Shown here in pieces: positions 7,346 to 44,790 of a stretch of DNA of 64,000 nucleotides. The position numbers and the translations under genes were made by a program. Positions within the stretch are counted from its first letter, which is position 1. Every line of letters begins with the position of its first letter. The stretch is from Eledone cirrhosa (taxonomy: Eukaryota), in contig OZ024749.1 in NCBI GenBank assembly GCA_964016885.1, positions 28,768,001 through 28,832,000 on the forward strand, read 5' to 3'. Below the pieces are notes generated by a model that was not told the DNA's origin, ran no database searches, and saw nothing but the letters and a program-made list of their open reading frames with translations.

Positions 7346-7887
7346 CAATTCGAATTTCCGTTAGACAGAAGGAATTATTCCATCATCATTGTCACCCAAA
7401 TTTCTTTCCAATTACATCTGGAATGAAGGAGACATTTCTTATATACCATAATGACTTTAAGTGGGTATATATAGTTATATAGTTATATTCCTAACTGCCT
7501 TCATTCACGTTTTACACGTTGTATATATGTATACATACATAAGCATGTACATATTTATGTATGTATGTATGCATGCATGTATGTATGCATGTATGTATGA
7601 GTGTAGGTATGCATGTGTATGTAAGTATGTATGTATGTGTGTATGTGTGTAAGTATGCATGTATATATGTATGTTTGTATGTGTGTAAGTATGCCTGTAT
7701 GTATGTGTGTATGTGTGTATGTATGTATGTGTGCATCCGTATAGTATTGAAGAATGCGAGTATGAGTACTCAATATTCTAATAAGGTCGAGCCTGTGGCC
7801 TGTTACTCCGAAGTTTATTTTCAATTTCCACAGGGTCATAAGTTAGAACTGTCTGAATGTATGTGTATATATATATATGTATGTGTG

Positions 7888-7947
<60 letters not shown>

Positions 7948-7974
7948 CACACACACACACAAACACACACGCAA

Positions 7975-8044
<70 letters not shown>

Positions 8045-8148
8045 ATATATATGCATATATATATATATATATATATGCATATATACATAATACATATATG
8101 CATATATATGTATACACACATACAGATATACATACATATATACATACA

Positions 8149-8194
<46 letters not shown>

Positions 8195-9080
8195 AATATA
8201 CATCTGTGTATATGTTTGTGTATGTATGTGTCTGCCTGGCTGTCTGTTTCTGTATGAAACTTCAACTTGATGGCCACAAATATATACTGTGGACCTATGT
8301 GTGGAATATCCTGTGAGGATGCGGTGCCGTCTTACAGGAAATTGGTCATGTAGCCAGCCTTTATAATTTGCTTAATAAAGAATAAGAGCCAACATTTATA
8401 TATGTGCTTCTCAATGTGTTGAATGGCGATAGCCCCTGTGTTCTAGTTTGTGGCGTCATAGTAATAGGTTGTCCGTCATTCTATCCATCGGTGCTTAACT
8501 GTTGATGATGTCGTAGGAACACCGTTGTGATTTTCATCGCTTTCCGGCCATTTTTAATCCGGCGTACCCCATCTCTATCTAGGACTGAACATGGCCGATT
8601 TCTTTCAGAGAATGGAGACAGTGCAAGATAAAGAAAGCGAGATAGAGCAAGAATCAGCCGCTCCTCTCATGTCTCAGTACTGCTTCTATATTTACTGATC
8701 TCAAAATAATTGTTTCTTATTTAGGCACAAGGTCAACAATTTTGGTAGGAGAGGGGAAAGTTACTGGCACTTTATTTTATAGACCTCGTAGGGAGGAATG
8801 TCAAAGCTAACCTTGGTGGGATCTTAACTCAGAACATAAAGGGCCGTAACTCTATCAATTGATCTCAAAAGAATGGTTTCTGATTGAGATACAATGTCAA
8901 TAAGGTCAACAATCTTATTTTTTTAATTTTAATTTTTGTTTTTTGTGGGGGTGGGGGACGATAATTCGACTCCAGTACGTTACTGTATTTTCAACATTTC
9001 AACCATGTATTTTCAACTGTGGTTACCCCCCCCCCCTCCACACACACAACTCGGGAATCTACATTTCTATATATATATAT

Positions 9081-10040
<960 letters not shown>

Positions 10041-10435
10041 GTGTGTGTGTTGTGTGTGTGTGTATGAAATGTATGTATGTATGTATATAGCTTTCAAATT
10101 TAATAACATATATTTTTTTAAGTTTATAAGTATATAACCTATAAAATATATATTTATCAAATGCACTTGAAACCTTTCTTTCCTCTGGATTACCTACATA
10201 TTAGGGCTATACCTGCTATATCTTTATTCATGCAGCAAGATTTTAATCATAGTGGCTGCATATTTATGTAATACAAACATGAAATGTGGGTTCGCTGTTT
10301 GATACTGTGTAGAGTGTGCAGATTATTACAAAAAGAAAACTACTGTGTAATATGTGCAGAGAAGTATCTGTCTGTAGAATAGGATAAGTGTGTTTACTTG
10401 AATGAGAGAATGTGTTGATATGTGAGTATGTATGC

Positions 10436-10482
<47 letters not shown>

Positions 10483-10657
10483 GCGTGTCTGTATATATGC
10501 ATATATACATAATACATATATGCATATATATGTATACACACACACATACAGATATACATACATATATACATACATACATATATATTATATATATATATAT
10601 ATACATTATATATATGTATATATACATATATGCATATATTTATATATACACACATAA

Positions 10658-10773
<116 letters not shown>

Positions 10774-10914
10774 TTATATATATAGTAAAGAGCAAGACAG
10801 AAAGAGGTGCTTATATATATATTTATATATATATATTATATATATATATATATATATAACCAGGTTATGAACGGTATATGGTGATACAGCGTGGTTTTAT
10901 GGAAACGTTTAATA

Positions 10915-12275
10915 ATTATTTCTACTAGAGGCACAAGGCCAACAATTTGGGGAGAGGGGAAATTCGATTAAATCGACCCCAGTGCATTACTGGTCCTTTA
11001 TTTTATCGACCCCGTAAAGAGGAAAGGCAAAGCTAACCCCGGCGGTATTTGAACTCAGAACGTAAAGGGATATAACTCTGTCGCTAAGCATGTTGTCCGA
11101 CGCTCTACCGAGTCTGCCACCGTTTAATAATGACATGACCAATAACATAATCAAAATAAAAATATTTTAATGTCGGCGCAATGCCAGCTGCTTGTGATTA
11201 AGGGAGAAAATCAATGAAACCCATCCCATTACTCCACTAGTACTTTATTTATCGACCAACCAATGATAAAAGACAAAATTCACCTCGATGAGATTTAGAA
11301 CGTAGAACGTAAAAGAGCGGGAATTAACACCACAATGGTATTTTGTCAGATGCTTTACCAATTCTGCCAATAATTCTGACAACCCACCTGTTGTTCAAGA
11401 ACACAACACGCCGTCCGCTCCAGAAATCGAACCTACGTCATTTCTATTTTAGGCACAAGGCCAGTAATTTTGGCAAAGAGCAGTCGAGGATAAAAATAAT
11501 AATGGTTTCTACGTTAGGCACAAGGCCAGCAATTATCCAGTGCATTACTGGTACTTTATTTCATCGACCCCGTAAGGATGAAAGGCAAAGTTAACCTCGG
11601 CGGGATTTGAACTCAGAATGGCAAGGGCCGTAACTCTATGCGCCAAAGCATGGCATCCGACACTCTACCAATACTGTCAATCCACGTTTCTTATTTAGGA
11701 AGAAGGCCAACAATTTGGGGATGGGGAAAGGCGATTAAATCGACCTCTGGATGTTACTGATACTTTATTTTATCGACCCCTCATAAGGATGAAAGGGTAA
11801 AGCTAAGCTCGGCGGAATTTGAACTCAGAGCGTAAAGAGACGTAACTCTATGCCACAAAGCATGTTGTCCGATGCTCTACCGATTGCTGCCAATCCGCTA
11901 TTTATAATAATTGTTTCTACTTTAGGCACAAGGCCAGAAAATTACCCAGTGTATTACTGGTACTTTATTTTATCGACCCCGTAAGGATGAAAGGCAAAGT
12001 TAACCTCGGCGGGATTTGAACTCAGAATGGCAAGGGCCGTAACTCTATGCGCCAAAGCATGGCATCCGATACTCTACCAATACAGCCAATCCATGGTTTC
12101 TGATTTGGGCACAAGGCAAATAATTTTGTGGGAGGGGAAAGTCGATTAAATCGACCCCAGTGCGTTACTGGTACTTTATTTTGATAGTACTGATTTGAAC
12201 TCAGAATGTAATGAGTCGTGACTCTATGCCACAAAGCATGTTGTCCGACGCTCTACCGGTTAGTGCTGCCAATCC
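10915..12275 (-). mobile_element. head-to-tail cluster of ~6 family-1 SINE copies
   Basis: GGCACAAGGCC...TACTGGTACTTTATT...ATCGACCCC...TTTGAACTCAG...CTCTACC recurs about six times in the same orientation. Confidence 0.85.
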
Positions 12276-12431
12276 AATAATAATGAATATTAGTAAGTGA
12301 AACTCCCAATACAAACCATTAACCTCTCCGACTCCATTCCTTAATCCCCCCCCCCTCTCTCTCCCTTTCTCTTTTTTCTTTCCCTTTTCTCTTTCATTCA
12401 CTCCATACTCTCTCCTCTCTCTCTCTCTCTC

Positions 12432-12523
<92 letters not shown>

Positions 12524-12688
12524 CCTCCTTTATTTCCTTTTCTCTCCCATCTCTACTACTCTCCTTTCTATCCTCTCCCTGATTCCTCTCTATTCAGTTC
12601 ACGGGAGAGACAGAGAGAGAGAAGGAAGAGAGCGAGAAAGAGTGAGAGAGAGAAGGAGAGAGAGCGAGAAACAGAGAGAGAGAGCGAG

Positions 12689-12726
<38 letters not shown>

Positions 12727-13171
12727 AGGAGAGGGAGAGAGAGAGAGAAAGCGAGAGAGAAAATTAGTGAGAGATATAGAGAGAAAGATAAGGAGAAGAG
12801 GAAGTCGTCTTTTAACTGTTTCTATTCTACCTTCAATTACATCTTTTTATCAATTGAAATGAAATTATATTTTTACATCATAAATTTCCATTATGTACAT
12901 AAATTAAGAAAGGAAAAAAGAAATAGAAATACAACCCCCACCACCATTGCCACCACCACCATTACTACCACGACTGCCAACACCACCACCACCACCACCA
13001 TCCATCAACGACAACAATACCACCACCACCACCACCACACCACCGCCACCCACCACACCCCCACTGCCAACACCATCACCCTACACCGCCGCCACCATAA
13101 CAGCCACCTACACCACCACCTACCACCACTACCCACAACCACTGCCATCAGCCGTAACCTCAAATCCTTTA

Positions 13172-13371
13172 NNNNNNNNNNNNNNNNNNNNNNNNNNNNN
13201 NNNNNNNNNNNNNNNNNNNNNNNNNNNNNNNNNNNNNNNNNNNNNNNNNNNNNNNNNNNNNNNNNNNNNNNNNNNNNNNNNNNNNNNNNNNNNNNNNNNN
13301 NNNNNNNNNNNNNNNNNNNNNNNNNNNNNNNNNNNNNNNNNNNNNNNNNNNNNNNNNNNNNNNNNNNNNNN
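13172..13371. other. assembly gap (200 N)
   Basis: Run of N; the round length suggests a placeholder. Confidence 0.98.
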
Positions 13372-16892: not shown

Positions 16893-18616
16893 GGTGGTGG
16901 TGGTGGTGGTGGTGGTGGTGGTGGTGTCAATAAAATAAAGGACCGACTAGCCAAGTATTAGAATCGATATAATCGACTTTCCTCTTTCCCCAATCCCTAC
17001 CATCACCATCGTCACCACCATCATCATCATCATCATCATCATCAACATCAGCGCCACCGCCACCACCATCGCCACCATCATCATCATCGTCTTCATCGTC
17101 GTCATCGTCACCACCACCATCATCATCATCACTATCATCATCATCATCATCATCATCATCGTCGTCGTCGTCACCACCAGCATCATCATCAACGCCAACA
17201 CCACCACCACCACCACCACCATCACCATTATCATTATCATTATCATCGTCATCACAATCATCATCATCATCATCATCATCAACACCACCATCACCATCAT
17301 CATCACCACCCCCATCATCATCACCACCCCCATCATCATCCTCATTATCACCACCATCATCATTACCACCATTACCATCATCTTCAACACCGCCATCACC
17401 ATCATTACCATCATCATCACCACCACCACCATCATCACCACCACCACCGTCATCATCATATCATCATCATCATCATCATCGCCGCCGTCGTTGCCTTATT
17501 TCCTATTTAATTCTGACATTAGTCTTATTCTAAAGCCGGCTAAAGATAATCAAAAAGCTATGTCCCTGACCACAAACACCGCTCCTGATGACGTCACCCA
17601 CACCAGCCCCCAGATATATAACCCTGACCATACCACCACACAACCACACCGCCCTCACCATACCACCGCACTCACCGCACACACCACACCACCCTCACCG
17701 TTCTCACCACACCAACTTACCACCAGACCACACCACACCACAGCCCTCATCACACCACCACACTCACCACACCACCGCACTCACCACACTCACCACCTTC
17801 ACCACACCGCCTTCACCACACCACTACACCACCCTCACCACACCCAAACTTGACAGCTTCTTACGATTCCTCAATTTTAACATGGTTACTTCCTTTCCCA
17901 AGCATCCTTTCATCGCCTCTCGCTGAAATGTCTGTATTATAAGATAATCATTAACACAGGGTAAGGCGGGGATGGAGTGACGGTAGGAGGGAGAGGGAGT
18001 GAGAGAGTGGGATAGAGAGGGGGGTAGAAGGGAGGGAAGGAGGGAGGGAGAGAGAAACAGAATGAGAGGGAGGGAGCTACAGAGTGGTAAGGAGACTGAG
18101 AGGATGGGAGTTACAGAGAGTGAGTGGGGTAGATAAAGAGAGAGAGAGAGACGGACAGAGAGGGAGATAGGGAGAGGTGGGAGACAGGGTGGATGGGAGA
18201 TTGAGAGGGAGGGAGAAGATACAGAGAAAGAGAGAGGGAGACAGGGAGATAGAGGGAGAGAGCTAAGGGGGCATGGAGAGAGAGAGGGTGACATTTTTTT
18301 CCGTTCTAGGCAATAATCGGTAGAGTGTCGGGCAACATACTTCGCAACATATCATCACGGCGCTTTACGTTCTGAGTTCAAATCCCGCCGAAGTTAGCTT
18401 TGCCTTTCATCATTAAGGAGTCGATAAAATAAAGTACCAGTAACACACTGAGGTCGATTTGATCGAGATTCCCCACCCATAAAATTATTGGCTTTGTGTC
18501 TAATTTCTGTAGTTAAAAAGATACAGTGAAGTTACTAATTCAGTTTTCAAATTCCCCCGCTGCTTTCTAATATTTATGGGTATACACACACATGTGTATA
18601 TATATATATATATATA

Positions 18617-19141
18617 TATAAACAAATAACGAAACGAAATTAAATTTCGTTTCGTTTGTAACTCACTTTTGTATGACTGACGCTTAAACAATTAAGTTAA
18701 AAATGTACATCTACATATGCATACTGAAATACTAGTATGCATATGAATACACACACGTATACATATGTAGATGTACCAAGTCTTTCACTGGTTACTTTAC
18801 TGTGAGTAATCCAGCTATTCTGTATGTAAACACACAGACAAACCGGTTTTTAGAGTCATACTGGTTTTCGAGGAAACACCTTTCCTCTATTCTCCAGAAA
18901 GCCAGACAAGGAATATTGAACTAGTTTCGTTGTTGTTACAACTCATCAGCAATATTTACCTATCTACCGGCCTTTCTGGAGAATCGTAAAAGCACATATC
19001 GTTATATGCTTTTTCTATGAAAATTAGTAGTGGGCAGACTAATAACCAGTGAAAGACTTGGTACATCTACATATGTATACGTGTATGTATTCATATGCAT
19101 ACTAGTATTTCAGTATGCATATGTAGATGTACATTTTTAAC

Positions 19142-19147
<6 letters not shown>
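18617..19147 (-). mobile_element. fold-back element (family D) with ~105-bp arms and a hammerhead in the loop
   Basis: Arms ~18690-18795 and ~19043-19147; (TA)n on both sides. Confidence 0.8.
18912..18956 (-). ncRNA. type I minimal hammerhead ribozyme (canonical core)
   Basis: Minus strand: AATATTG-CTGATGA-GTTG-TAACAA-CAAC-GAAAC-TA-GTT-CAATATT. It has a 7-bp stem I, a 4-bp stem II, a palindromic stem III (AACTAGTT) and a GUU triplet. Confidence 0.88.
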
Positions 19148-19189
<42 letters not shown>

Positions 19190-19194
<5 letters not shown>

Positions 19195-19384
19195 AACGAG
19201 TAGGACCCCGACGGCTGAGCTCAAGCCGTTTCGACGGCTAATTCTGTCCAGAATTAGCCGTCGAAACGGCTTGAGCTCAGCCGTCGGGGCCCTACTCGTT
19301 CCTATTACCCACTCTACTACCCTAAGTATTGAGTACTTCGGTGCGTTATGGTCCACCTGGTTCCTTACCACATTTCCTTCGTTA
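19190..19384 (+). mobile_element. fold-back element family B (3' half of a hammerhead)
   Basis: Palindrome centred at ~19248. Each arm has GAAA-CGGC-TTGAGCTCA-GCCG-TC-GGGG but lacks CUGANGA. Other copies at 9261, 9730, 20453 and 32743. Confidence 0.8.
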
Positions 19385-19633
19385 TATATATATATATATA
19401 TAAACCGTGTATAACATACAGGTATTTTTATATTACTTATATTACTTAAGATGGATGGCATCTAATATATGTTTTCGACGGTACTCAAAGTTTCATGATA
19501 GTACCGACGAAAACATGCTTAGTTGCCGTATATATATACAAAAGGTAAACAGAAATAACAAAGCAAACGACACAGTACAATGAAGAAATATATTTTTAAT
19601 TTTAGTTTTACGCTTGATATTGTAAGAAAAGAG

Positions 19634-19669
19634 TCTTAACGTTTCGGACACTAGTCCTTCATCAGAAAA
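19634..19669 (-). ncRNA. minimal hammerhead ribozyme
   Basis: Minus strand: TTTT-CTGATGA-A-GGAC-TAGT-GTCC-GAAACGTT-AAGA. Confidence 0.8.
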
Positions 19670-19873
19670 TAGAATGAGAAAGTAAAGAAGAAATAGAAAT
19701 GTAGAGGAGACTGGCCGTAGTAGAAACAAAACAAAACATTCTAGAGAAAAAACACGTCCATTCATGTATTTTGCAAGAGATGTCAACATGAATGGACCTG
19801 TTATTTTTATCTAAAGACATTTTTTCCAATTCCAACCCACACGTCCCCTCAATCTATCTTATTTCTCATTCTT

Positions 19874-19909
19874 TCTTCTGACGAAGGACTAGCGTCCGAA
19901 ACGTTAAGA
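19874..19909 (+). ncRNA. minimal hammerhead ribozyme
   Basis: TCTT-CTGACGA-A-GGAC-TAGC-GTCC-GAAACGTT-AAGA. Stem I is TCTT/AAGA; the palindromic AACGTT stem III is typical of dimer-acting Penelope hammerheads. Confidence 0.85.
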
Positions 19910-19996
19910 CCCTCTTCCTGCTATATCAAACGTTAACCTAATATATCCCTTCCATACACTGTACCGATTTTGTTGTTATTTCTGTTTACTTTTTAC

Positions 19997-20029
<33 letters not shown>

Positions 20030-20031
<2 letters not shown>

Positions 20032-20380
20032 TCAAAATAAAGATCCGAAGGCATAGTATAAATTTCCAATCATTTTAATCACGACACATGTTTCAATAAG
20101 AGATAGATCGATCGTGCGGCCATGATCGATTATCACTGATCTCGTCAGGTGAAAATGAATTTGAAGACAATTCATTTTCACCTGACGAGATCAGTGATAA
20201 TCGATCATGGCCGCACCATCGATCTATCCCTTATTGAAACATGTGTCGTGATTAAAATGATTGGAAATTTATACCATGCCTTCGGATCTTTATTTTGATA
20301 CAAATACTCCGTTTTACATCATCTAGCTGTTCCCTTAAATGGAACTGGAGATATACAAAAGCGTGGAGAACTTAATATTG
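20030..20380 (+). mobile_element. fold-back element (family F) with ~130-bp near-perfect arms, both with an intact hammerhead
   Basis: Palindrome centred at ~20165; arms ~20030-20161 and ~20169-20300. The right boundary of the tail is approximate. Confidence 0.82.
20178..20251 (+). ncRNA. type I hammerhead ribozyme with extended stem II
   Basis: TCAC-CTGACGA-[47-nt hairpin including ATCGAT/ATCGAT and GATA/TATC]-GAAAC-ATGT-GTC-GTGA; mirror copy on the minus strand at 20079-20152. Confidence 0.82.
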
Positions 20381-20452
20381 CTAACAAAAGTTTATTGGAC
20401 CGTATGACACAACCAATAATACACCTTACTATATAACTACATATATATATAT

Positions 20453-20614
20453 AACGAAGGAGGTGTGGTAAGGAACCAGATGAACCATAACGCACCAGAG
20501 TACTCAATACTTAGGGTAGTAGAGTGGGTAATAGGAAAATATTAGACCCCGACGGCAGAGCTCAAGCCGTTTCGACGAAACGGCTTGAACTCTGCTGTCG
20601 GGGTCTAACATTTT

Positions 20615-20653
<39 letters not shown>

Positions 20654-20828
20654 TTCTACAGGACTAGAACTGTTTCATTCTTTAGAAATCATCAGAGATT
20701 CTTGATGATTTCTAAAGAATGAAACAGTTCTAGTCCTGTAGAATCTCATCTATATTAAAACTTTTATACTCTGCAATGTATTGAGTACCTTACTTACTGT
20801 GGTTACCTCCGACTCAACCCGGAATAAC

Positions 20829-20830
<2 letters not shown>
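20453..20830. mobile_element. family B (20453-20620) and family A (20649-20830) fold-back elements
   Basis: Sequence identity with the copies at 9.2-9.9 kb; separated and flanked by (TA)n. Confidence 0.85.
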
Positions 20831-20870
<40 letters not shown>

Positions 20871-25116: not shown

Positions 25117-25436
25117 CTGGATTACTACTGCAGTCTCCGGGAACTCCGCTAGACACCTGTCGGGTGGCACCGTTTTTTAATATGCCTCCAATTCGGGAAC
25201 CAATGGAAAGGTTTGCCATGCCGCCTTTCCCTCCTTATTACCCTTACCACGCCGCCGCAGCTGCTGCAGCTGCCGCCTCGCAACACCCGCTTCATCCCAT
25301 CTTCTTCTACCCGCACCACTACACGGCACTCAATTATGCCATGATACCCGACAGTAGCTTCAAAACTAACAAAAGTTCCAGCATCGCAGATCTCAGACTG
25401 AAAGCCAAGAAACATTTAGCAACGTTGGGGCTATGA
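25117..25436 (+). CDS. Shox: terminal coding exon of short-stature homeobox (Shox/Shox2-like) protein with OAR domain
   Basis: Polypyrimidine tract plus TTGCAG acceptor ending at 25116 (phase 1). It translates GLLLQSPGTPLDTCRVAPFFNM...poly-Ala...KSSSIADLRLKAKKHLATLGL*. The CRVAP motif and the SSIADLRLKAKKH..LGL OAR tail match SHOX/SHOX2. Homeobox exons were not found in the window. Confidence 0.9.
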
Positions 25437-41620: not shown

Positions 41621-41654
<34 letters not shown>

Positions 41655-41662
41655 TATGTATA

Positions 41663-44214
41663 TCAGCACCCACGTCCACTTCTTAGACATCTCAGTCGCC
41701 TTCGACCCCTCCCACCACTCCCTGTCACCTCCGCCTAATTCAAACCCACCGACTCCCACTCCTACCTCGACTTCACCTCTTCCCACCCCACACACACTAA
41801 ACACTCTATTCCCTACTCCCAACTCCTCAGGATCCGCCGCCTCTGTAGCCGAGATGCTGACTTTGAGTTCCAGGCCCTTTCCCTAGTCAGCCATTTCATC
41901 CGCAGAGGTTACCCCCCTCTCTCGTCCACACCGCTCTCACCCACGCCCGTGCTGTCCACCGCTCCATCACCCTCACCCCACGCCACCGCACACCCACCCA
42001 CCGTCTCCCCTTCCCCATCACCTACCACCCCTCCACCATACCCCTCCACCGCACCATCCTCCGCCTATTTCGACGCCTCCAGTCCGACCCCTCCACCTCC
42101 CACATCTTCCCAGCCCCACCACTCCCCTCCTTCAAACGCGCACGCAATCTCCGCACCCTCCTCGTCCACAGCTCCCTACCCCTAACCTACGCTCTCCTTC
42201 CCCCTCCGGTTCCCTTCCCTGTTCCAGGCCCCGTTGCAACACCTGTCCCCACATCACCAACACCACCACCTTCCAGGGTCTCAACGGCCACTCTCTCTCT
42301 CTGTCCGACATGCCTTCCGCTGCACCTCCTCCAACCTAGTCGACGGACTTCGCGCAACCTACATCGGACAGACTGGACGTCGCCTGGCGGATCGGTTTAC
42401 CGAACACCTCCGAGATATTCGGTGGTAGTTCCCCCATCGCCCGCCACTTTGGTGCCCCTGGACATTCCGCGCACCACCTCACAGTGTGTGGCCTACTCCA
42501 ATGCCACGGAACACCCGCCACTCTCGTCAGAGTCGAACAACGAACCATCTTCACCCTACAGACCCACACTCCCCCCGGCCTGAACTCCCCACCCTTATTC
42601 CTTTAACCTTCGACCGCCTCCCCCCCACATATCCCCCACTAACGCCACTAACACACCCCTCCTTTTCACCGCCCACCCCACAACTAACAATACTAACACC
42701 TCCACCCCACACCCGACCACCCTTCCCCAACTAACATACTAACATCCCTCCCTTCTTCTCCCCCCTCCCCTTATCACACGCACACACCCACCGGTACATA
42801 TATACACGCGCTCACACTAAACACACACCCTACTACCACCACTAACCCTCACCCCCACACATCCTCCCCACCACCCCGCAACTAACATCACTAACACCCC
42901 CCGAACCCACGCACACGAACACACACACCCACTTACACCACCCACTCTACACGCAACTAACATCACTAACACCCCCCAACCCTACGCACACGAACACACA
43001 CACCCACTACACCACCCACTCTACACACCCTACCACCACTGACCCCCACTCACACCCGCATTCAACCCTTTCCCCACCACCAGTATACTAACACCCACTA
43101 ACCCCCCCCCCCCCCTCTCACCACACACACACTCATCCAAACACTCACACACACACCAGTACACTACACTCCCTCCACCGGCCCCCACACCCTTCTCTCC
43201 CTGCTCCACCCACACCCTTTCTCACACACACACACATCCCACTAACACCTCTACTAATACCCCCCCCCCCCTCACTCCAACTTTCACACCTACCCATCCT
43301 CTCCCCTGTCCACCGCATCTCAGCACACACTGACACACCGACTTTCTTCACTTACCATTCTCCACGACTGCTGCTATGCCCTTATCTCTGACCACCTCCC
43401 CGCACACACAGACACACAACCCTCCTCCTGCCTTGACCCTCTGACCACTTCCTGTTGCGCGCGCAGCCCACATCTCCCCTCTTCCGACCAACCCAACCAT
43501 GGATTACACATATTGGACATCGATCCCTAGAATCAACCACATCCCAAGGATATTACCCAGCATTCCACCACATCCTCTACGGAACTACCTTAAGGACTCA
43601 CCCACTGACATACATTCAAAAACATTTTTTCCCACACGCCACCTACATCCACAACACGCATAAACACCACACACACGTGCGTACCACCACATATTTACAC
43701 ACTCAGCCTCCGGAATCTCCCCCACCTCTCTGACCCCTCCTCATCCACACACGCACACACACCGACCTACACCCCACCCCACACACACCTCTTCCTGAAC
43801 ATGCAACCCCGTTCTTCCCCCAACTCTTACTTTCACAAACACACACACACACGTACACCTACACACACACACCACCTTCAGCCCTCCCCGCTCGGACACC
43901 CCGCCTCCCTCTCCCCACTCCACCCCCTACACGCCCCACAACCTTCCCTCACCTGTTTTACTTCATGTTTATTTTTATTTTTATTATGCTTTTATATTTA
44001 ATTTCATTTGTACCGTTTCCTCTCACCCCCTTTTTTCTATATGTCTCTCCACCACTCCCCTACACACCCTTGGAACTCTCTTCCCACACACTTTTCACCT
44101 GAAGAAGGGCTTATGCCCGAAACGTCGTTCCCCACCACCACCCCACTCTCAAGAGCGTGAAACTTATAAACCTTTGTTCGTACTGCCTCTCTGTTTTGTT
44201 CCCGTTCAATTTTT

Positions 44215-44218
<4 letters not shown>
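41663..44218 (+). mobile_element. 5'-truncated Penelope-like retroelement (Neptune-like) with long C-rich 3' UTR and hammerhead
   Basis: Frameshifted coding remnant ~41663-42610: FLDI, KPTDSHSYLDFTSSHP..IPYSQLLRIRRLCS, RGYP, PCSRPRCNTC linker, YIGQTGRRLADRFTEH, PPGLN. (TA)n lies at both ends. Confidence 0.92.
44097..44128 (+). ncRNA. minimal hammerhead ribozyme at the 3' end of the Penelope-like element
   Basis: AC-CTGAAGA-A-GGGC-TTAT-GCCC-GAAAC-GTC-GT. Confidence 0.82.
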
Positions 44219-44255
<37 letters not shown>

Positions 44256-44257
<2 letters not shown>

Positions 44258-44790
44258 TAAGTTATTCCGGGTTGAATCGGAGGTAACTACAGTAAGTAAG
44301 GTACTCAATACATAGCAGAGTATAAAAGTTTTAATATCGAAGAGATTCTACAGGACTAGAACTGTTTCATTCGTGAGAAATCATTAGGAATCTCACTCTA
44401 AGTAAAGAATGAGCTTTTAAAGAATTCCCCTTTCTTGAAACCCTTTCTTTAAACCATGACTGACCTCCAACCATCTTATAGGCAGCTGAAATATAGGCAT
44501 TGTTAGCTTAAGAGAAACTTAAAAATAAGGAGTAGCACTCCAATTTGAACTTGTTTATAGAATTCTTTCTGCCTTTGTCACTCTAAATATAAATTATAGC
44601 TTTAAAGAATTAGCTTTTAATGAATTCCCTTTTCTTTCAACCAATGACCTCCACCCATCCCACTCCCCACCCTCTCCTACTACCAGAAAAGATATAAATA
44701 CCACCATATTTACTTGGACAGTCAGATTCCTGATGATTTCTCACGAATGAAACAGTTCTAGTCCTGTAGAATCTCTTCTATATTAAAACT
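44256..44790 (-). mobile_element. longer family A fold-back element
   Basis: Family A tail on the minus strand at 44256-44330; inverted arms ~44330-44392 and ~44724-44790 around a ~330-bp loop. Confidence 0.85.
44724..44774 (+). ncRNA. complete type I hammerhead ribozyme (family A)
   Basis: AGATTC-CTGATGA-T-TTC-TCAC-GAA-T-GAA-ACAG-TTCTAGTC-CTGT-A-GAATCT. It has a 6-bp stem I and a 4-bp stem III; predicted cleavage is after GUA at 44768. Confidence 0.85.

What the first reader, a model, noticed from the sequence alone, without database searches (positions are those of the whole stretch)
18617..20830. Chain of six or seven different ribozyme hairpin elements in 2.2 kb of the presumed last Shox intron
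Seen: family D, family B, a small hairpin (19469-19516), then families E, F, B and A follow one another, linked by (TA)n spacers, with five canonical hammerhead cores. Inference: each insertion leaves or regenerates a TA target, creating a self-propagating landing pad. No upstream Shox exon was found in 1-25116, so the cluster is probably intronic and transcribed with a developmental regulator.
Basis: partly seen in the sequence, partly recalled or inferred. Interest (0 to 1): 0.75.

Follow-up and report, generated by a model that had tools for sequence, protein, structure and literature searches.

The report
Penelope retroelement ends stacked in TA-repeat
This 2.2-kb stretch, likely in the last intron of an octopus Shox gene, is a pile of eight cut-down jumping-gene pieces of known kinds that likely landed one after another in a TA repeat; such piles occur across this genome, and the ribozyme motifs facing the gene are predicted to be folded shut.

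Summary
The chain is real and mostly as described, but ordinary in kind. It holds eight pieces: 3' ends of Hydra-type Penelope-like elements (A, B twice, F), two Neptune-type copies of different age (E, E2), one young 467-nt retrozyme (D) and an old unassigned piece (G). None of the 40 scored genome matches reproduced the chain as a unit. Identities to the nearest other copy run from 85 to 100% and orientations are mixed, so insertion was likely sequential. TA tracts touching one element carry a second about twice as often as expected, and chain sizes in 1.31 Mb fall geometrically (171/30/9/1), so tens of eight-member chains are extrapolated genome-wide. Shox is not enriched once clusters count as one event. 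Of five canonical hammerhead cores only two face the Shox strand; both, and A's variant core, are predicted to be paired with upstream antisense arms, so cleavage at 19905 or 20247 is unlikely. Both B copies lack half the core. The last-intron position is well supported but spans an assembly gap. The open point: oldest pieces sit centrally and young families have long TA flanks, suggesting a decaying landing pad. The scan has reported such stacks before on other DNA.

The parts
18597..18620 (.). (TA)n tract, left boundary of the chain
18621..19147 (-). D: non-coding retrozyme insertion (about one 467-nt unit plus a 105-bp inverted arm); type I hammerhead 18896-18967, core 18949, predicted GUU cut at 18919; antisense to Shox
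   Evidence: (copies 100% identical, tandem arrays)
19148..19192 (.). (TA)n spacer, 23 units
19190..19382 (+). B1: 3' end of a Hydra-type Penelope-like element; inverted arm, forward arm and tail; only the 3' half of the hammerhead
19404..19527 (-). G: old, unassigned TA-flanked fold-back piece (small hairpin 19469-19516); no intact core
   Evidence: (11 other matches, 77-89% identity)
19540..19766 (-). E2: old copy related to family E; minimal hammerhead core 19665; antisense to Shox
   Evidence: best full-length matches 85%
19769..19998 (+). E: young 3' end of a Neptune-type Penelope-like element; minimal hammerhead core 19878, predicted GUU cut at 19905; head-to-head with E2 across one TA
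20030..20440 (+). F: 3' end of a Hydra-type Penelope-like element; 132-bp inverted arm (core 20148 on -), forward arm (core 20182, predicted GUC cut at 20247) and 140-nt tail
20454..20619 (-). B2: second B copy of another subfamily; half hammerhead only
20650..20830 (+). A: 3' end of a Hydra-type Penelope-like element; hammerhead with closed helix III and a U-U pair at the base of helix II; forward core has U at position 3; intact core in the inverted arm (20695 on -)
20830..20867 (.). (TA)n tract, right boundary of the chain
13172..13371 (.). Assembly gap; the Shox homeobox exon lies here (contig C831 continues into it) and, by elimination, so does the short third exon
25117..25436 (+). Shox last coding exon (OAR domain), 99% identical to an Octopus bimaculoides Shox2 protein

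Best explanation
The chain is eight separate, 5'-truncated pieces of (TA)n-targeting Penelope-like retroelements and one retrozyme that likely inserted one after another into what began as a single TA tract, likely in the last Shox intron. Shown: family identity of A, B, E and F through longer copies with RT and/or GIY-YIG frames; TA at copy ends; different ages; mixed orientation; a genome-wide excess of neighbours. Inferred from published PLE work: the element's endonuclease cuts in (TA)n, and both DNA ends prime reverse transcription at two internal sites of the RNA. This gives a forward arm with a tail plus a shorter inverted arm, and leaves TA on both sides. The split tract stays a target, changes length by slippage and decays with age. 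The hammerheads are passengers of the element ends. On the Shox strand each is predicted to be paired with an upstream antisense arm, so the likely effect on the pre-mRNA is long double-stranded RNA, not cleavage.
For: Long copies: F joins a frame with RT thumb, CxCx5C linker and GIY-YIG; B likewise; A's tail runs directly into a 378-aa frame with RWR and DKT motifs; E's long copies share RT + CX4CxxC + GIY-YIG with CCHH. D forms 467-bp tandem arrays, 35% GC, longest Met frame 22 aa. TA of 8 nt or more lies at the 3' end in 29/29 A, 28/28 B, 12/12 D, 18/23 F, 21/29 E and 11/19 E2 copies. 34 of 37 elements in 390 kb of control DNA touch a TA tract. The far side of a touched tract is occupied in 20/216 cases, against 48/1412 in control DNA and 78/1760 for other tracts of the same loci; length-stratified OR 2.0, p 0.008. 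With de novo families it is 32% against 17% in controls. Adjacent pairs: 8 tail-tail, 6 head-head, 5 head-tail. Arms of one insertion are more alike than shuffled pairs for A, B and F. Folding penalty for the ribozyme shape rises from 2.7-5.8 to 38-65 kcal/mol when the upstream arm is included.
Against: No empty allele of this chain was seen, so the order of insertion rests on sequence identity, which depends on family size; B2 was compared only with loci in hand. Six-family chains of three or more were rare (1 in 181 focal loci), so eight is the far tail and the extrapolation (about 5 to 120 per genome) comes from an element-enriched sample. The de novo chain count scored the window's own chain as only 4. 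The E2/E junction has one TA, not a tract. G is unassigned. Clade labels rest on motifs; no tree was built. A's C-terminal frame (L225) is separated from the A end by other insertions. Folding results are equilibrium predictions.
Confidence: 0.85

Rival explanations
1. Active regeneration: each insertion duplicates or synthesises TA (staggered cut, or slippage during repair), so a filled site offers more target than the empty one and chains grow by positive feedback. This is a stronger form of the best explanation.
For: Young copies have long TA on both sides: both sides 16 nt or more in 17/21 B, 11/19 A and 7/15 F, against 8.7% expected from splitting a length-weighted tract. Duplicated flank marks in 9/108 complete insertions against 0.6% in shuffled pairs. 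One haplotype pair gained about 20 units. Precedent in MuTAnT DNA transposons: about 15 units per flank against 9 at empty sites (PMC4486113 passages).
Against: A strong preference for long tracts gives the same flank lengths. Of the 9 duplications, 4 are one locally duplicated cluster seen in two contigs, 1 looks like a neighbouring repeat and 2 lie in compound microsatellites, leaving 2 clear cases. The other haplotype pair lost about 10 units. TA lengths differ between the two contigs even without insertion and may carry assembly error.
Confidence: 0.4
2. The chain, or much of it, moved or formed as one unit, by composite retrotransposition or by template switching among several RNAs in one event.
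For: E(+), F(+), B(-) occur in the same order and orientation at one other locus, and F-B tail-to-tail at several. The E2/E junction lacks a TA tract.
Against: That search favoured such loci. At the other locus F has a different internal breakpoint and B is another subfamily. No match covered more than about 460 of 1261 bases. Identities span 85-100%. No head-to-tail excess.
Confidence: 0.05
3. The chain acts on Shox: sense-strand hammerheads cut the nascent intron, or the cluster has been kept for regulation.
For: The position is intronic. Two canonical cores face the sense strand. A PLE hammerhead can be protein-assisted (PMC11167929).
Against: Cores are predicted to be paired, mean unpaired probability 0.00-0.09. 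E and F need a dimer partner and differ in helix III. Metazoan minimal hammerheads cut poorly, and not at all as monomers (PMC4209133). The flanking pieces are very young. The Shox span is not enriched in clusters (10 seen, 8.1 expected, p 0.30).
Confidence: 0.07

Closest known systems
Hydra clade of C-terminal EN+ Penelope-like elements, including Hydra-1_Obim (Craig et al. 2021, PMC8557442; passages, section 11 and supplement rows read)
   Same: (TA)n insertion, CxCx5C linker, DKT and RW[KR] motifs, no CCHH, hammerhead near the 3' end, inverted 5'-truncated copy and one-sided tail (families A, B, F).
   Different: Three other families: short motifs of A, B and F were absent from the supplement and the listed Hydra-1_oBim hammerhead differs. 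Tails are 70-140 nt rather than 30-40. A plus B extrapolate to about 2x10^5 short copies.
Neptune-type Penelope-like elements with minimal hammerheads (Cervera and de la Pena 2014, PMC4209133, parts 1-2 of 4 read; PMC8557442)
   Same: E has RT + CX2-5CxxC linker + GIY-YIG with CCHH, a minimal type I hammerhead with an extra base after A9, a G10.1-C11.1 pair and a palindromic helix III. Opposite-strand hammerhead pairs 100-700 bp apart are described there.
   Different: Here the head-to-head pair is two copies of different age, and the cleavage triplet is GUU.
Metazoan non-LTR retrozymes (PMC7229834, passages; bioRxiv 10.64898/2026.07.22.740005, part 1 of 5 and passages)
   Same: D is non-coding, low GC, tandem, with one type I hammerhead per unit; linked to PLEs.
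   Different: The 467-nt unit is slightly above the 150-450 bp range. This copy has one core and a PLE-style inverted arm. Circular RNA was not tested.
Poseidon_Ac in vitro mechanism (Frangieh et al. 2024, PMC11167929, parts 1-2 of 4 read)
   Same: Both strands cut and extended, two internal RT start sites that define the tail, hammerhead dispensable for insertion.
   Different: There priming is not homologous to the target; here copy ends fall at TA in the template, which suggests microhomology.
MuTAnT and other (TA)n-targeting transposons (PMC4486113, passages)
   Same: TA microsatellite as a safe haven, nested insertions, longer TA at filled sites.
   Different: Plant DNA transposon without a ribozyme.

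Membership tests
Hydra-clade PLE (A, B, F) | C-terminal GIY-YIG endonuclease after RT, contiguous with the element end | tested here: met
   F: L035, L033, L034. B: L078, L097/L223, L181. A: N-terminal frame contiguous in L269, C-terminal frame in L225 separated by other insertions. Pfam GIY-YIG for L225 only 12.2 bits, below cutoff; none for B and F.
Hydra-clade PLE (A, B, F) | CxCx5C linker and no CCHH motif | tested here: met
   Alignment; L181. L097 has the first Cys changed.
Hydra-clade PLE (A, B, F) | RWK and DKT motifs | tested here: met
   A: RWR and DKT. F: DKT. B: N-terminus not recovered.
Hydra-clade PLE (A, B, F) | (TA)n insertion, inverted 5' copy, tail | tested here: met
Hydra-clade PLE (A, B, F) | Canonical hammerhead near the 3' end | tested here: inconclusive
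   F canonical core. A canonical core in most family copies, with a U-U pair at the helix II base. Full-length B has a YUGANAA variant core. Window B copies lack it.
Hydra-clade PLE (A, B, F) | RT phylogeny groups with Hydra | not tested
   No tree built; similarity to the supplement alignment judged by eye.
Neptune-type PLE (E, E2) | RT + CX2-5CxxC linker + GIY-YIG with CCHH at the C-terminus | tested here: met
   L232, L238, L240, L250, L254, L256 and L258 of 30 loci. E2 assigned only by 76-80% identity to E.
Neptune-type PLE (E, E2) | Minimal hammerhead in the pseudo-LTR | tested here: met
   55 pattern matches: 50 with CUGANGA, 39 with the same helix II, a few with two-sided changes.
Neptune-type PLE (E, E2) | RT phylogeny | not tested
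   No tree built.
Non-LTR retrozyme (D) | Short tandem non-coding units with one type I hammerhead each | tested here: met
   467-bp spacing over 20 cores at one locus, GC 35%, no frame over 22 aa; HH9 match below gathering threshold.
Non-LTR retrozyme (D) | Self-cleavage and circular RNA in vivo | not testable with these tools
   Needs bench work or RNA reads.
Intronic cis-acting ribozyme of a host gene | Core on the sense strand, able to fold as a monomer in context | tested here: not met
   Sense cores of E, F and A are predicted to pair with upstream arms; E and F lack a stable helix III.
Penelope-like element (G) | Linked RT/EN frame or intact hammerhead | tested here: inconclusive
   11 diverged relatives, shared hairpin, no frame or intact core recognised.

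The most novel reading that the evidence does not exclude
Chains like this are age-polarised, self-renewing landing pads. Each Penelope-type insertion leaves freshly lengthened TA on its flanks, the inner spacers decay, and the chain grows outward, so its order is a readable record of successive retroelement waves. The built-in antisense arm silences each hammerhead, which is what lets some 10^5 ribozyme-bearing copies sit in introns and turns them into double-stranded RNA substrates instead.
Probability: 0.3. Interest if true: 0.5.

Novelty: new member of a known kind. Interest (0 to 1): 0.27.

Why it matters
As a locus it matters little: it is the long tail of a genome-wide pattern and no effect on Shox is indicated. 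As a sample it is useful. About a fifth of TA-tract sides in this genome carry a recurrent repeat end, and two filled/empty TA pairs appear within 7 kb of the same gene. Octopus haplotypes therefore offer a large natural test of how Penelope-like elements cut and rebuild (TA)n targets, a mechanism that PMC8557442 names as open.

Tried and rejected
Rfam at gathering threshold: no match in the window. Composite element: rejected. Two different RNA templates for the two arms as the rule: rejected, since arms are more alike within than between insertions (A p 0.011, B and F p 0.0005; D uninformative, 4 pairs). A recurrent one-arm variant in B is explained by query bias (the allele is rare); homogenisation of arms after insertion is not excluded. 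E as an endonuclease-less or Naiad element: rejected, since long copies carry a C-terminal GIY-YIG. Shox-specific enrichment: 20 elements against 8.1 expected (p 3e-4), but 10 clusters against 8.1 (p 0.30), using small-chromosome controls. Third Shox exon: not found in C9 28,738,001-28,768,000, the window, C831 1-80,000, or by genome search. Sequencing runs: no RNA holder listed. Contigs of four runs were swamped by other copies and none spanned the chain, so no empty site of this chain was seen. The G arm-to-arm alignment was mis-set and is not used. E against E2 flank length alone is not significant (p 0.39). Literature searches returned no paper on chains of hammerhead-bearing PLE ends in octopus TA repeats; the library lacks most subscription papers and bioRxiv supplements were closed.

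Full report
Setting. The last coding exon at 25117-25436 matches an Octopus bimaculoides Shox2 protein at 99%, so the animal is an octopus or close relative. The window is G000:C9:28,768,001-28,832,000. Shox exon 1 lies on the same strand about 46 kb upstream of the chain, and the homeobox exon is on unplaced contig C831. The window has one gap, 13172-13371. C831, reversed, is colinear with window 7422-13171 and runs on to the homeobox exon, so that exon belongs in the gap. The short third exon was found neither in the contiguous DNA nor in C831 1-80,000 nor by genome search, so it probably lies in the remaining gap. The chain follows the gap and precedes the last exon by 4.3-6.5 kb, so it is very likely in the last coding intron, provided the scaffold is right.

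Observation. The order of pieces and the TA spacers are as described. The five canonical cores are at 18949(-), 19665(-), 19878(+), 20148(-) and 20182(+). There are eight pieces: D(-), B1(+), G(-), E2(-), E(+), F(+), B2(-), A(+). The E hairpin is two copies. E has relatives at 97-98%, E2 only at 85% over its length; they share 163 of 241 columns and meet at one TA. Both B pieces carry only GAAA, helix III and the cut site; the 5' half appears in longer copies. G has no intact core.

Identity. Longer F copies extend 5' into a frame with RT thumb, CxCx5C linker and GIY-YIG, contiguous across L033, L034, L035 and L038. Longer B copies do the same. The tail of A continues directly into a 378-aa frame with RWR and DKT motifs in L269. 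These are the features given for the Hydra clade, which inserts in (TA)n and has a member in O. bimaculoides (PMC8557442 section 11 and supplement rows). Seven of 30 loci for the 5' part of E share RT, a CX4CxxC linker and a GIY-YIG domain with CCHH, the Neptune pattern. Pfam support is weak and no tree was built, so clade names rest on motifs. D occurs as 99-100% identical 467-bp tandem units without a reading frame, folds as a type I hammerhead on a long stem and gives a sub-threshold HH9 match: a non-LTR retrozyme by the criteria in PMC7229834 (passages). An inverted 5'-truncated copy and a one-sided tail are described PLE features, and the tail is explained in vitro by two internal RT start sites with both strands extended (PMC11167929). 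Arms of one insertion are more alike than shuffled pairs in A (6 pairs), B (30) and F (13), which fits one template per event or later homogenisation.

Abundance and target. In 39 control stretches (390 kb) the six families gave 37 elements, 34 touching a TA tract; B and A extrapolate to about 1.4 and 0.9 x 10^5 copies. A de novo grouping of TA flanks gave 115 end groups. About 20% of control tract sides were occupied after removing two tandem loci and internal-TA pairs.

Landing pad. The far side of a tract touching a focal copy carried another six-family element in 20 of 216 cases, against 48 of 1412 control sides and 78 of 1760 sides of other tracts in the same loci; the length-stratified odds ratio was 2.0, p 0.008. 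With de novo families, control tracts gave 32% against 17%. Chain sizes in 1.31 Mb were 171 pairs, 30 triples, 9 of four and 1 of five. A geometric fit (q 0.19) extrapolates to about 26 chains of eight or more per genome, range 5-118. The sample is enriched for elements, and the method scored this chain as only 4. With only these six families, 1 of 181 focal loci had a chain of three, so eight is the far tail. A search with the middle 1261 bases found no match longer than about 460 bases among 40 scored loci of 9509 candidates. One locus repeats E, F, B in the same order but with another F breakpoint and B subfamily. Nineteen adjacent pairs showed no head-to-tail excess. The Shox span has 20 elements but only 10 clusters, against 8.1 expected.

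Order and regeneration. Best identity to another copy along the chain is 100, 99.3, 85, 85, 97.8, 98, 95.5 and 100%. It rises with distance from the centre (Spearman 0.77, permutation p 0.02); this test is post hoc and B2 was compared only with loci in hand. Median 3' TA length rises with family youth: E2 8, E 11, F 14, B 27.5, A 30, D 41.5 nt. Young copies have long TA on both sides far more often than splitting predicts, but a preference for long tracts would do the same. Duplicated flank marks were seen in 9 of 108 insertions, of which 2 are clear. C831 supplies two filled/empty TA pairs about 100 bases apart in the same gene: 40 units empty against 7+23 filled, and about 22 against about 7+33. 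Direction of change is not proven and TA lengths vary between the contigs anyway. Survival of the target is therefore shown; regeneration is open.

Ribozymes and Shox. On the Shox strand only E and F have canonical cores, and A's forward core has U at position 3. Forcing the hammerhead fold costs 2.7, 5.8 and 5.6 kcal/mol alone but 46.5, 37.6 and 65.0 with the upstream arm. In the whole-chain fold each core pairs with its antisense copy, and that arm is transcribed first. E and F also need a dimer partner, and metazoan minimal hammerheads did not cut as monomers (PMC4209133). D's ribozyme stays folded in context but is antisense. 956 of 2214 bases lie in predicted helices of 15 bp or more. Such helices would be ADAR substrates; that cephalopods edit heavily is recalled and seen only in a search listing, and was not tested.

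Verdict. A real, unusually long example of a genome-wide and largely published phenomenon. Earlier notes of this scan describe similar stacks on other DNA and supplied the lead to Hydra-1_Obim, which I checked in the supplement. New member of a known kind; interest 0.27.

Noticed in passing
window 7422-13171 against G000:C831 (L221, L309): Unplaced contig C831 is colinear with the window up to the gap (21 mismatches in 4102 complex positions) and carries the Shox homeobox exon about 25 kb beyond. It has two TA-tract insertions (at window 10727 and 10826) and a 1.65-kb LINE-like insertion in a (TATC)n tract (12507) that the window lacks.
   Followed up: yes
window 9173-9884: Second cluster A-B-A-B in the same gene; looks like a local tandem duplication of an A+B unit followed by hairpin deletions. 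Its TA spacers differ between the two contigs (35/23, 19/23, 28/13, 30/36 units).
   Followed up: partly
window 41650-44220: Degenerate Neptune-type Penelope-like element related to family E (RT thumb, GIY-YIG, minimal hammerhead at 44099), followed across a TA tract by a longer inverted A insertion (44261-44790).
   Followed up: partly
L078, L037, L196, L099, L124 and other long B copies: Full-length B hammerhead core reads YUGANAA: the published U3-A8 variant in some copies, C3 with A8 in many. Most short B copies stop inside loop II and most short A copies stop at the 5' edge of helix I.
   Followed up: partly
L126:1646-2542: The 5' end of an E copy abuts, head-to-head and without a TA tract, a different PLE frame with a Pfam GIY-YIG hit; a possible two-template event.
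   Followed up: no
control loci L174-L212: Six-family density is 31 per 210 kb on small chromosomes against 6 per 180 kb on large ones.
   Followed up: no
G000:C1:268645613-268654972 (L227, L228): Retrozyme D array of 20 cores at 467-bp spacing, with an internal inversion.
   Followed up: partly
L096: B insertion with a duplicated TA tract plus 24 unique bases and a short fold-back filler at the 5' junction; a clear staggered-cut signature.
   Followed up: partly
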